A stretch of DNA of 64,000 nucleotides from Dehalococcoidia bacterium (GCA_040882565.1 JBBEAZ010000018.1:1635-65634); one strand, 5' to 3'; shown: positions 28,135 through 28,267, counted from the first letter of the stretch. Made by a program: numbers and translations. Notes: generated from the sequence alone by a model not told the origin.

Positions 28135-28267
28135 ATGTTCCTTGTTCCTTGCTCCCTGTTCCTTGTTCCTTGTTCCCTGTTCCCTGTTCCTTGTTCCCTG
28201 TTCCCTGTTCCTTGTTCCCTGTTCCTTGTTCCCTGTTCCTTGTTCCCTGTTCCTTGTTCCCTGTTCC
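28135..28267. repeat. 19-copy perfect tandem heptanucleotide array (YTGTTCC)19; minus-strand sense is (GGAACAR)19
   Basis: The array was counted unit by unit from 28135 to 28267 with a single variant unit (ttgctcc). It starts 16 nt after the rimI stop codon. Confidence 0.9.

What the first reader, a model, noticed from the sequence alone, without database searches (positions are those of the whole stretch)
28135..28267. Perfect 19-copy heptad array (GGAACAR)19, part of a wider GGAAC period-7 RNA motif family
An uninterrupted 133 nt array of 19 heptamers (YTGTTCC on the plus strand, GGAACAR on the minus strand) lies 16 nt after rimI. The same GGAAC unit with the same 7 nt periodicity recurs, always in mRNA sense, in the 5' UTR of the MBL hydrolase gene (17145-17170), in the groES-groEL intercistronic hairpin (22898-22969) and in the 3' UTR of the DUF2851-like gene (41752-41780). 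On the minus strand every junction of the array reads ACARGGA, matching the high-affinity CsrA/RsmA binding consensus (RUACARGGAUGU; the GGA sits in a loop). The array therefore resembles a CsrB/RsmZ-type protein-titrating sRNA with 19 GGA sites, or the titration target of an unknown GGAAC-binding protein. Alternatively it is a contingency microsatellite altering expression of the adjacent small ORF.
Basis: partly seen in the sequence, partly recalled or inferred. Interest (0 to 1): 0.78.

Follow-up and report, generated by a model that had tools for sequence, protein, structure and literature searches.

The report
Expanded seven-base repeat at a promoter
The 133-base run of a 7-base unit between two genes of an uncultured Dehalococcoidia bacterium is a recently expanded microsatellite that grew out of a promoter's -35 box; it is one of many seven-base repeats in this bacterial group, and nothing indicates a protein-sponging small RNA.

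Summary
The array is real: 19 heptads at 28135-28267. It is not perfect, because 17 units fit YTGTTCC, unit 1 is ATGTTCC and unit 3 is TTGCTCC. GGAAC heptads also occur at the three other sites named, far above chance. The CsrB/RsmZ-like sponge reading is not supported. Both flanking genes are on the + strand. No promoter or terminator consensus, Rfam match or hairpin-presented GGA was found. A relative with 96% identity in the downstream ORF has only 2 perfect heptads in the same spacer, and relatives at 75-88% identity have none of this unit. The array sits directly upstream of a conserved promoter for the downstream 100-aa ORF, TTGnnn-N17/18-TAnnnT-N6-10-ATG. Its 18th unit supplies the -35 box (TTGTTC). 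Period-7 repeats with many different cores are strongly enriched in related Dehalococcoidia. The groES-groEL spacer of relatives always forms a hairpin with heptad-built arms, but the core differs by lineage. The closest known things are the unexplained intergenic heptamer repeat families of Xanthomonas (GGGAATC) and cyanobacteria. My verdict is a slippage-generated, hypervariable heptanucleotide microsatellite: a new member of a known kind. Any cis effect on the neighbouring promoter is untested.

The parts
28135..28267 (+). Heptanucleotide microsatellite of 19 units: 9 CTGTTCC, 8 TTGTTCC, 1 ATGTTCC and 1 TTGCTCC. It reads GGAACAR on the minus strand. The promoter-proximal half alternates C- and T-type units, giving a 14-nt higher-order period.
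   Evidence: Base composition of the + strand is A 1%, C 36%, G 14%, T 49%. It is unstructured as RNA on both strands.
28254..28259 (+). Inferred -35 hexamer TTGTTC of the ORF100 promoter. It is the first six bases of heptad 18.
   Evidence: TTGnnn-N17/18-TAnnnT-N6-10-ATG is found in all six distinct orthologous upstream regions compared, and again in L144. This is an inference from conservation; no transcription start site data exist.
28277..28282 (+). Inferred -10 hexamer TAGCCT. It lies 9 nt before the ATG at 28292 with no Shine-Dalgarno sequence between, which is a leaderless-type arrangement.
28292..28594 (+). ORF100, a conserved hypothetical protein of 100 aa with no Pfam domain. It has 398 homologues, and those that carry a source name are labelled Dehalococcoidia.
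27360..28118 (+). GNAT acetyltransferase (rimI-like). Its stop codon lies 16 nt before the array. The start codon is uncertain: the public MAG aa.
17145..17170 (+). Four GGAAC heptads (GGAACAA GGAACTC GGAACCA GGAAC) in the 62-nt divergent spacer between the GNAT gene 16568-17131 (-) and the MBL-fold hydrolase gene 17194-17835 (+).
22900..22968 (-). groES-groEL intercistronic hairpin. The 5' arm has four GGAAC heptads and the 3' arm three GUUCC heptads plus one degenerate unit. It starts 6 nt after the groES stop and ends just before the groEL Shine-Dalgarno sequence.
   Evidence: -37.9 kcal/mol, z -2.8. Relatives carry equivalent hairpins built from other heptad cores.
41754..41779 (-). Four GGAAC heptads between convergent genes: tsaD (40727-41719, +) and the DUF2851 gene (41783-42955, -).

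Best explanation
The array is a lineage-specific heptanucleotide microsatellite produced by replication slippage. It is not a gene.

It arose by tandem duplication of a 7/14-nt segment that contains the -35 box of the promoter of the downstream 100-aa ORF. It then expanded upstream towards the rimI-like gene, from about 2-4 units (the state in a 96%-identical relative) to about 16-19 units here. Every T-type unit recreates TTGTTC, so the promoter-proximal units keep a -35 box exactly 17 bp from the -10 box (TAGCCT). The promoter is therefore preserved whatever the copy number, and the expansion can be tolerated.

The array belongs to a general property of this Dehalococcoidia clade: a strong excess of intergenic period-7 repeats with a constant 5-nt core and 2 variable positions. 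The core differs between lineages and loci, and in this genome it happens to be GGAAC at all four sites in the window.

Shown: the array anatomy, the contraction/expansion contrast with relatives, the conserved promoter-like architecture, the period-7 excess, and the lack of sRNA features.
Inferred: the slippage origin, that the promoter is functional and leaderless, and near-neutrality.

If the array has any effect, I expect it to act in cis on transcription of ORF100, or on termination of rimI read-through. I do not expect it to act in trans.
For: - A relative with 96% ORF100 identity (L138) has a 62-nt rimI-ORF100 spacer...ATGTCCC TCTTCC TTGTTCC CTGTTCC TCGCTCTGC TAGCCT GATTTCGCG ATG. That is 2 perfect heptads where the window has 19, with identical downstream promoter sequence.
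- L144 (88% identity) has TTGCTCC TTGCTAC at the same -35 position. TTGCTCC is also the window's variant unit 3.
- Relatives at 75-85% identity keep the synteny and the TTGnnn-N17/18-TAnnnT-N6-10-ATG architecture, but have no array and no GGAAC heptad clusters in about 20 kb each.
- Only two main unit types occur, in 14- and 21-nt higher-order blocks, as expected from slippage.
- Short-read assemblies break in the array, and one contig end differs from the window by exactly 3 units.
- Period-7 arrays number 23 in 75 kb of close relatives, against 0-2 for periods 5, 6, 8, 10 and 11, and they use many different cores.
- The features match the published Xanthomonas GGGAATC family: mostly 4 units with rare long arrays, variable positions within the unit, convergent inverted pairs, location just 3' of the upstream ORF, no strand preference, and lengths not conserved between related species (PMC4692102).
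Against: - The three small clusters keep GGAAC in 15 of 16 units while the 2-nt spacers take six different values. Simple slippage followed by neutral decay does not produce this. It points to some constraint on the core, or to a generating mechanism not yet understood.
- Three of the four loci end with GGAACATGG, which hints at common ancestry or a directional process.
- Near-neutrality is assumed, not shown.
- No expression data exist, so antisense transcription cannot be excluded.
- The promoter is inferred only from conservation in seven sequences.
Confidence: 0.7

Rival explanations
1. Cis-acting contingency locus. Changes in repeat number alter expression of ORF100. This could happen by swapping the unit at the -35 position between TTGTTC and the weaker CTGTTC after 7-bp slippage in the proximal units, or by moving upstream elements or changing local DNA structure. 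The model is the (ATCTTTC)n tract upstream of H. influenzae hmw1A/hmw2A.
For: The array overlaps the inferred -35 box. Copy number differs sharply between close relatives, 19 against 2, and possibly within the population, as a 3-unit discrepancy. The promoter-proximal half strictly alternates C and T units, so 14-bp steps keep TTGTTC at -35. Heptamer tracts are proven graded expression switches at hmw (PMC12721329).
Against: The tract lies upstream of the -35 box, not between -35 and -10 and not in a 5' UTR, so most length changes leave the core promoter untouched. ORF100 is a conserved small cytoplasmic-looking protein, not a surface or variable antigen. The same kind of repeat sits at sites with no promoter, namely the convergent gene ends and the intercistronic spacer. 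In Xanthomonas no regulatory role could be found for the analogous repeats.
Confidence: 0.15
2. Protein-titrating RNA. The minus strand is transcribed as a roughly 150-nt (GGAACAR)19 RNA that sequesters CsrA/RsmA or an unknown GGAAC-binding protein. The small GGAAC clusters in mRNAs would be that protein's regulatory targets.
For: There are 21 GGA and 17 ACARGGA motifs on the minus strand. The RNA would be single-stranded and accessible. GGAAC cores are kept while spacers vary in the small clusters. One cluster lies in the likely 5' UTR of the MBL gene.
Against: - Both neighbouring genes are on the + strand, and the ORF100 promoter abuts the array.
- No promoter or terminator consensus was found on either strand.
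- No Rfam hit to CsrB/CsrC/RsmX/Y/Z or any other family was found.
- GGA is not presented in hairpin loops.
- The array is nearly absent in a 96%-identical relative and absent in others.
- ACARGGA occurs only once per small cluster.
- Relatives use other cores (GGAAG, GAAAC, AGGAG, GTAAC, CTGGT) at the same groES-groEL position.
- No CsrA was found in about 80 kb.
- No strand bias was seen across 120 loci from many phyla.
Confidence: 0.03
3. Non-B nucleic-acid structure element. Four or more GG tracts spaced 7 nt apart on the G-rich strand form two-tetrad G-quadruplexes, with an i-motif on the C-rich strand or a triplex on the purine-pyrimidine tract. These would affect transcription, replication or RNA stability, as proposed for Xanthomonas GGGAATC and Nostoc GGGGAYT.
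For: Three of the four loci have exactly four GGAAC units, and each arm of the hairpin has about four. This is the same 'preference for four units' reported for the G4-forming Xanthomonas repeats. The G-rich strand is 6/7 purine.
Against: The G tracts are only GG or GGG with 4-5 nt loops, so any quadruplex would be weak; this rests on general knowledge and was not computed here. Many heptad cores in relatives have no G tracts at all (CATTCAC, CGAAATN, AATGTTG, GACATCY), so G4 formation cannot explain the period-7 phenomenon as a whole.
Confidence: 0.05
4. Rho-loading or insulating spacer. In rimI read-through transcripts the array is a 133-nt unstructured RNA with 36% C and 14% G, an ideal rut-like site. 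It would terminate rimI transcription before the ORF100 promoter.
For: The + strand composition and lack of structure fit. No intrinsic terminator lies after rimI. The array starts 16 nt after the stop codon.
Against: This is inference only. Relatives manage with 30-140 nt spacers that lack such a tract. The presence and specificity of Rho in this organism were not examined. It does not explain the GGAAC-sense clusters.
Confidence: 0.05
5. Assembly artefact. The long array is an assembler's mis-resolution of a short repeat.
For: Short-read contigs end inside it, and one contig end disagrees with the window by 21 nt.
Against: Independent contigs from the NCBI MAG and two Logan runs all carry several units at their ends: 76 nt on the left contig and 54 nt on the right. 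They share the irregular T/C order and the TTGCTCC variant with the window. The array is therefore certainly long, at least about 11 units; only the exact number is uncertain.
Confidence: 0.02

Closest known systems
Intergenic heptameric repeat families of Xanthomonas (GGGAATC / GGGANTN) and Nostoc (GGGGAYT) (Rehm et al. 2015, PMC4692102). Related families are the cyanobacterial STRR heptamers and the TAACTGA repeats of Beggiatoaceae, cyanobacteria and Bacteroidetes (MacGregor 2015, PMC4679880).
   Same: - The unit is 7 nt, with a conserved core and variable positions.
- Copies are dispersed in intergenic regions.
- Most loci have about 4 units, with rare long arrays (up to 26 there, 19 here).
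- Convergent inverted pairs can form stem-loops (70-75 cases there, the groES-groEL element here).
- Copies lie close to the 3' end of the upstream ORF.
- There is no strand preference relative to genes.
- Length and sequence are not conserved between close relatives.
- Function is unknown (searches compared).
   Different: The phylum is new (Chloroflexota, Dehalococcoidia) and the core is new (GGAAC). The G tracts are only 2-3 long, so G4 formation is doubtful. In this clade the core differs from lineage to lineage and even locus to locus, whereas one core dominates a Xanthomonas genome. Only 4 loci of this genome could be examined, not a whole-genome census.
CsrB/CsrC/RsmX/RsmY/RsmZ protein-sponge sRNAs
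   Same: It has many closely spaced GGA motifs, 17 of them within ACARGGA, which matches the core of the CsrA SELEX consensus.
   Different: GGA is not in hairpin loops. No transcription unit is detectable. No covariance-model match was found. The array is not conserved even at 96% identity of the neighbouring protein. It is antisense to both neighbours. No CsrA was seen in the sequence available.
Heptanucleotide contingency tract (ATCTTTC)n upstream of Haemophilus influenzae hmw1A/hmw2A (PMC12721329)
   Same: It is a tandem 7-nt SSR of 10-25 units upstream of a gene. It is hypervariable, and short-read assemblies break at it.
   Different: The hmw tract is transcribed in the 5' UTR, pairs with a G-rich partner to form an RNase III hairpin, and controls an adhesin. 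Here the tract lies upstream of and overlapping the -35 box, has no complementary partner nearby, and neighbours a conserved housekeeping-type small ORF.
REP/BIME-type intercistronic stem-loops and groESL intercistronic processing sites
   Same: The groES-groEL heptad hairpin sits between two cistrons directly before the groEL Shine-Dalgarno sequence. It is kept as a structure across relatives. This is the position expected of an mRNA-stability or processing element.
   Different: Its arms are built of period-7 repeats whose sequence is completely different in different lineages. No processing data exist. This applies to the 22900-22968 element only, not to the 19-unit array.

Membership tests
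CsrB/RsmZ-type titrating sRNA | Multiple GGA (A(N)GGA) motifs | tested here: met
   21 GGA and 17 ACARGGA on the minus strand of 28121-28290
CsrB/RsmZ-type titrating sRNA | GGA motifs presented in loops of repeated stem-loops | tested here: not met
   The minus-strand RNA is essentially unstructured: MFE -9.5 kcal/mol, z +1.2, with no repeated hairpins
CsrB/RsmZ-type titrating sRNA | Independent transcription unit (own promoter and intrinsic terminator) | tested here: inconclusive
   No sigma-70-type promoter or terminator consensus on either strand of 27700-28800. The scan is a simple consensus search and there is no RNA-seq. The flanking genes and the inferred ORF100 promoter are on the opposite strand.
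CsrB/RsmZ-type titrating sRNA | Similarity to a described family model | tested here: not met
   No Rfam hit at gathering threshold in the window. Only one unrelated chance hit at E<=10 in 27950-28450.
CsrB/RsmZ-type titrating sRNA | Conservation of the RNA gene in related genomes | tested here: not met
   2 perfect heptads in a relative at 96% ORF100 identity. None of this unit in relatives at 75-88% identity.
CsrB/RsmZ-type titrating sRNA | Cognate CsrA/RsmA protein encoded in the genome | not testable with these tools
   tblastn with E. coli and B. subtilis CsrA against about 80 kb of this genome gave only chance hits, E>5.
Intergenic heptameric SSR family (Xanthomonas GGGAATC type / STRR type) | Tandem 7-nt units with a conserved core, at several dispersed intergenic loci | tested here: met
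   4 loci (5 arms) in 64 kb, all intergenic: 27 GGAACNNGGAAC matches against 0.21 expected. Period 7 is the only enriched period.
Intergenic heptameric SSR family (Xanthomonas GGGAATC type / STRR type) | Mostly about 4 units with occasional long arrays; heterogeneous positions in the unit | tested here: met
   Unit counts are 4, 4+3(4), 4 and 19. Spacers are AA, TC, CA, AT, TG and AG.
Intergenic heptameric SSR family (Xanthomonas GGGAATC type / STRR type) | Convergent inverted pairs able to form stem-loops | tested here: met
   groES-groEL element, -37.9 kcal/mol
Intergenic heptameric SSR family (Xanthomonas GGGAATC type / STRR type) | No strand preference relative to neighbouring genes | tested here: inconclusive
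   The window has one sense, one antisense, one convergent/ambiguous locus and one with both strands; four loci are too few. Across 120 loci from other phyla the counts were 17 tandem-sense, 22 tandem-antisense, 22 convergent and 8 divergent, with crude gene calls.
Intergenic heptameric SSR family (Xanthomonas GGGAATC type / STRR type) | Length not conserved between close relatives | tested here: met
   19 units against 2 units at 96% ORF100 identity. The groES-groEL arms vary in number and core among relatives.
Phase-variable contingency locus (promoter or 5' UTR SSR) | SSR placed so that length changes alter promoter spacing, the 5' UTR or the reading frame | tested here: inconclusive
   The tract lies upstream of the inferred -35 box and supplies it. 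Only changes in the two proximal units would alter the core promoter. The promoter itself is inferred.
Phase-variable contingency locus (promoter or 5' UTR SSR) | Length heterogeneity within a population, linked to an expression change | not testable with these tools
   There is only a 3-unit disagreement between the window and a MAG contig end. No reads or expression data were available.

The most novel reading that the evidence does not exclude
The period-7, '5 conserved + 2 free' repeats of this Dehalococcoidia clade might not be passive slippage products. They could be the footprint of an active system.

One version is a multimeric nucleic-acid-binding protein, or an RNA-RNA pairing network, that reads heptad-phased 5-mers. 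For example, the (YUGUUCC)n read-through RNA from the rimI 3' end could pair with the GGAAC arrays in the MBL 5' UTR and in the groESL hairpin.

Another version is a DNA-level process that writes heptad arrays onto both 3' ends at breaks. That would explain the convergent inverted pairs.

The core would co-evolve with its partner, which would explain why each lineage has its own core at the same groES-groEL position.
Probability: 0.06. Interest if true: 0.7.

Novelty: new member of a known kind. Interest (0 to 1): 0.3.

Why it matters
As submitted, a 19-site CsrA-like sponge in a phylum not known for Csr regulation would have been notable, but the evidence does not support it.

What remains is useful in three smaller ways.
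1. It extends the still unexplained phenomenon of intergenic heptamer repeats, known from Xanthomonas, cyanobacteria and Beggiatoaceae, to uncultured high-GC Dehalococcoidia. It also shows a clean before-and-after pair, 2 units against 19, that dates the expansion as very recent.
2. It shows a repeat growing out of a promoter -35 box while regenerating that box. This is a simple way for an SSR to expand without killing the promoter.
3. It explains why assemblies of these genomes break at this point.

The conserved groES-groEL hairpin, with heptad-built arms whose sequences are lineage-specific, is the most promising lead for a real functional RNA element in the region.

Tried and rejected
- **Rfam.** The whole window at gathering threshold gave 0 hits. 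The array region at E<=10 gave only a chance Rothia-sucC hit. No known RNA family matches.
- **tRNA/tmRNA scan.** None found.
- **Promoter and terminator scan, 27700-28800.** Nothing on either strand. The conserved ORF100 promoter was seen only by comparing orthologous spacers, because its hexamers are too weak for the scan.
- **Genome-wide census in the source genome.** This was not possible. Extra flanks of the same MAG, about 15 kb, held no further clusters.
- **ECF-sigma -35 (GGAAC) reading.** I looked by eye for CGT or GTT -10 elements 16-17 nt downstream of the terminal GGAAC units. I found none and dropped the idea.
- **-35 role for the 17145 cluster on the minus strand.** The spacing to the TGGTAACAT extended -10 of the GNAT gene is 22 nt, so I rejected this.
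- **Look-ups with the window's GroEL and GroES proteins for other strains.** Only the same MAG was returned.
- **ORFs running through the array** (28135-28284, 28142-28279, and the 5' part of 28149-29114). These are repeat artefacts (MFLVPCSLF...) and were ignored.
- **CsrA tblastn.** Only chance hits.

Full report
**1. The observation**

The window has 65.8% G+C. Positions 28135-28267 hold 19 consecutive heptads on the + strand: 9 CTGTTCC, 8 TTGTTCC, one ATGTTCC (unit 1) and one TTGCTCC (unit 3). The array is therefore real but not perfect. Tandem Repeats Finder reports it with best periods of 14 and 21, because C-type and T-type units alternate. It starts 16 nt after the stop codon of a GNAT (rimI-like) gene and ends 24 nt before the ATG of a 100-aa ORF. 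Both genes are on the + strand.

GGAACNNGGAAC occurs 27 times in the window against 0.21 expected from shuffles. The four-unit pattern never occurs in shuffles. Period 7 is the only period that is enriched, and all five arms use GGAAC/GTTCC.

**2. Context of the four loci**

The contexts, however, are heterogeneous.
- The 17145 cluster lies in a 62-nt divergent spacer between a GNAT gene (16568-17131, minus strand; called with an acetyltransferase domain in the public MAG) and the MBL gene.
- The 22900-22968 element is a hairpin between groES and groEL. It has GGAAC on the 5' arm and GUUCC on the 3' arm (-37.9 kcal/mol, z -2.8).
- The 41754 cluster lies between convergent tsaD and DUF2851 genes.
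- The main array is antisense to both of its neighbours.

'Always in mRNA sense' therefore does not hold. ACARGGA, the CsrA-like heptamer, is present at 17 junctions of the long array but only once in each small cluster. The element the loci share is GGAAC plus two free bases, not the CsrA consensus.

**3. Tests of the sRNA/sponge reading**
- No Rfam family matches the window at gathering threshold. At E<=10 the array region gives only one chance hit to an unrelated family.
- No sigma-70-type promoter or intrinsic terminator consensus is found on either strand around the array.
- Folded as RNA, the array is unstructured on both strands (z +1.2 and +1.4), so no GGA is presented in a hairpin loop.
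- tblastn with two CsrA proteins finds nothing in about 80 kb of this genome. That is only a fraction of the genome.

**4. Source and relatives**

The downstream ORF is 100% identical to a protein of a MAG labelled Dehalococcoidia bacterium (GCA_040903865.1). In that MAG one contig ends inside the array and another begins inside it. Two Logan contigs also begin inside it. The end of the left MAG contig differs from the window by exactly one 21-nt block of three units. The copy number is therefore polymorphic or was not resolved by assembly.

The decisive comparison is L138, a contig from another sample whose ORF100 is 96% identical. It spans the whole spacer, which is only 62 nt long: TAA CCGCCACCGCC ATGTCCC TCTTCC TTGTTCC CTGTTCC TCGCTCTGC TAGCCT GATTTCGCG ATG. 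That gives two perfect heptads, plus two degenerate ones, where the window has 19, followed by the same sequence up to the start codon.

Relatives at 75-85% identity keep the synteny (rimI, sometimes a glyoxalase gene, ORF100, a cytidylate-kinase-like gene). They have no array and no GGAAC heptad clusters in about 20 kb each. L144, at 88% identity, has TTGCTCC TTGCTAC at the corresponding place, and a different heptad (GGNAGTG x3) further upstream.

**5. A conserved promoter**

All six distinct orthologous upstream regions share the architecture TTGnnn-N17/18-TA(G/C)nCT-N6-10-ATG, with no Shine-Dalgarno sequence. L144 fits as well. This is the layout of a sigma-70-type promoter for a leaderless or near-leaderless mRNA. 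That is an inference from conservation; no TSS data exist.

In the window the -10 box is TAGCCT (28277-28282). The -35 box is TTGTTC (28254-28259), which is the first six bases of heptad 18, with a 17-bp spacer. The array therefore lies upstream of this promoter and supplies its -35 box.

The simplest history is tandem duplication of the 7/14-nt segment around the -35 box, followed by slippage-driven expansion towards rimI. Each T-type unit recreates a -35 hexamer, so the proximal units keep the promoter intact.

**6. The wider phenomenon**

The hits came from cyanobacteria (mostly GGAACAG, up to 59 units), Acidobacteriota, Planctomycetota, Gemmatimonadota, Chloroflexota and others. With crude gene calls these arrays are mostly intergenic and show no strand bias: 17 sense against 22 antisense in tandem gene pairs, and 22 convergent against 8 divergent.

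I then collected loci that encode close GroES relatives from metagenomes. Every relative with 62-86% GroES identity has an 80-116 nt groES-groEL spacer whose two arms are period-7 repeats, and the core differs by lineage:
- GGAAG (L140, L145-147)
- GAAAC (L141)
- AGGAG (L143)
- GGAAC (L148, L149, L151, L152 and the window)
- GTAAC (L150)
- CTGGT (L155)

All fold into long imperfect hairpins of -28 to -47 kcal/mol, with helices of about 5 bp separated by small internal loops, directly before the groEL Shine-Dalgarno sequence. More distant relatives have 30-43 nt spacers without a hairpin.

In 75 kb of these close relatives there are 23 period-7 arrays with a constant 5-mer core, against 0-2 for periods 5, 6, 8, 10 and 11. 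The units are very diverse: AGTGGAC, CACCTGA, CATTCAC, CGAAATN, CCATTTC, ATTGGCR, GTTAGGY and more.

Heptad periodicity is therefore a property of the clade. GGAAC is simply the core used at the four sites in this window. This argues against a single GGAAC-specific binding factor.

**7. Comparison with what is known**

The published description of the Xanthomonas GGGAATC repeats matches almost point for point. It reports perfect or heterogeneous (GGGANTN) units, 2-26 units with most loci at four, and 70-75 convergent inverted pairs. The repeats are about 90% intergenic, lie on average 28 nt from the upstream ORF, show no strand preference, and have convergent contexts more often than divergent ones. 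Their lengths are not conserved between Xcc and Xac, and no function was found (PMC4692102). That paper also cites the earlier observation that heptameric SSRs are over-represented in many bacterial genomes, possibly because of polymerase slippage. TAACTGA repeats in Beggiatoaceae and cyanobacteria are a further example (PMC4679880). The one heptamer tract with a proven role is (ATCTTTC)n upstream of H. influenzae hmw1A/2A. It acts in the 5' UTR through an RNase III hairpin (PMC12721329). The geometry here is different.

**8. What remains unexplained**

In the three small clusters 15 of 16 cores are intact, while the two spacer bases take six different values. Three of the four loci also end in GGAACATGG.
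- For the groES-groEL element the pattern follows from pairing: the cores form the helices and the spacers form the internal loops.
- For the unpaired clusters at 17145 and 41754 it is not explained by slippage plus neutral decay. This leaves a small probability for an active reader or writer of heptad-phased 5-mers.

**9. Verdict**

The array is a recently expanded, length-unstable heptanucleotide microsatellite that grew out of the -35 region of the ORF100 promoter. It is a new member, in Dehalococcoidia, of the known but functionally unexplained class of intergenic heptamer repeats. The CsrB-like reading is not supported, and a cis effect on ORF100 is possible but untested. Interest is modest. 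The conserved heptad-armed groES-groEL hairpin is the better lead for follow-up.

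Noticed in passing
window 22900-22968 (minus strand); L140-L152 and L155, groES-groEL spacers: The groES-groEL spacer forms a long imperfect hairpin just before the groEL Shine-Dalgarno sequence in every close relative. Its arms are period-7 repeats whose core is completely different in different lineages (GGAAG, GAAAC, AGGAG, GGAAC, GTAAC, CTGGT). 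The structure is conserved without sequence conservation, which suggests a functional intercistronic RNA element for processing or stability.
   Followed up: partly
window 28254-28294; L124, L125, L127, L129, L138, L144 upstream of the ORF100 homologues: A conserved promoter-like architecture, TTGnnn-N17/18-TAnnnT, lies 6-10 nt before the ATG with no Shine-Dalgarno sequence. This implies a leaderless mRNA for a conserved 100-aa protein of unknown function (no Pfam domain, 398 homologues; those that carry a source name are labelled Dehalococcoidia).
   Followed up: partly
window 28192-28231, compared with L137 positions 1-92 and L121 positions 1-54: The public MAG GCA_040903865.1 has one contig ending and another starting inside the array. 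The left contig's last units differ from the window by a 21-nt (3-unit) block, which means either length polymorphism or assembly ambiguity.
   Followed up: yes
window 23473-23499 (minus strand): A perfect CIRCE operator, TTAGCACTC-N9-GAGTGCTAA, lies upstream of groES. This implies HrcA control of the groESL operon.
   Followed up: no
window 23308-23403 (minus strand); 15-nt tandem repeat at 23318-23378: A strong Shine-Dalgarno sequence (GAGGAGG) precedes an ATG at 23403. groES may therefore start 32 codons earlier than the MAG annotation, which would add a lysine/alanine/proline-rich tail ([24 protein letters not shown], weak Pfam HC2 hit) encoded by the 15-nt repeats.
   Followed up: no
L141 33-133; L142 400-418, 1316-1334, 1782-1800; L143 159-177, 1239-1257; L145 3741-3759, 4531-4549; L156 1331-1356: Related Dehalococcoidia contigs carry many other period-7 tandem repeats with unrelated units (AGTGGAC, CACCTGA, CATTCAC, CGAAATN, CCATTTC, CGGTTNN, ATTGGCR, GTTAGGY, CAGCAAA). 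Sometimes three different arrays lie back to back within 100 nt.
   Followed up: partly
L015 4308-4718 (Trichormus sp. NMC-1); L003, L112, L115 and other loci: (GGAACAG)n, the same unit as the window's CTGTTCC, forms long arrays in distant phyla: 59 units in a Nostocales genome, and 15-19 units of GGAAC-core heptads in Gemmatimonadales, Terracidiphilus and Planctomycetaceae MAGs. The same heptamer has therefore expanded independently many times.
   Followed up: partly
window 29920-30837 and 30852-32393 (minus strand): Two adjacent paralogous genes encode proteins of 305 and 513 aa. The public annotation of the larger (L121) records a cupredoxin domain (PF13473) and lists none for the smaller. 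Both share a long, nearly identical region (HWHAPYTY.VCGEKQPPAP.W...GVHTHGDGIVH.HPF...).
   Followed up: no
window 45796-49176 and 49400-52783 (+ strand): Two tandem ORFs of 1126 and 1127 aa show the same internal pattern of overlapping ORFs, so they are probably a recent tandem duplication. The public annotation records a weak TSP_3 hit on one of them.
   Followed up: no
L144 about 1560-1600 (minus strand), rimI-ORF100 spacer of an 88% relative: A different heptad (GGCAGTG GGTAGTG GGACAGT) occupies the spacer, and the -35 heptad is duplicated (TTGCTCC TTGCTAC). The same spacer has therefore acquired heptad repeats more than once.
   Followed up: partly
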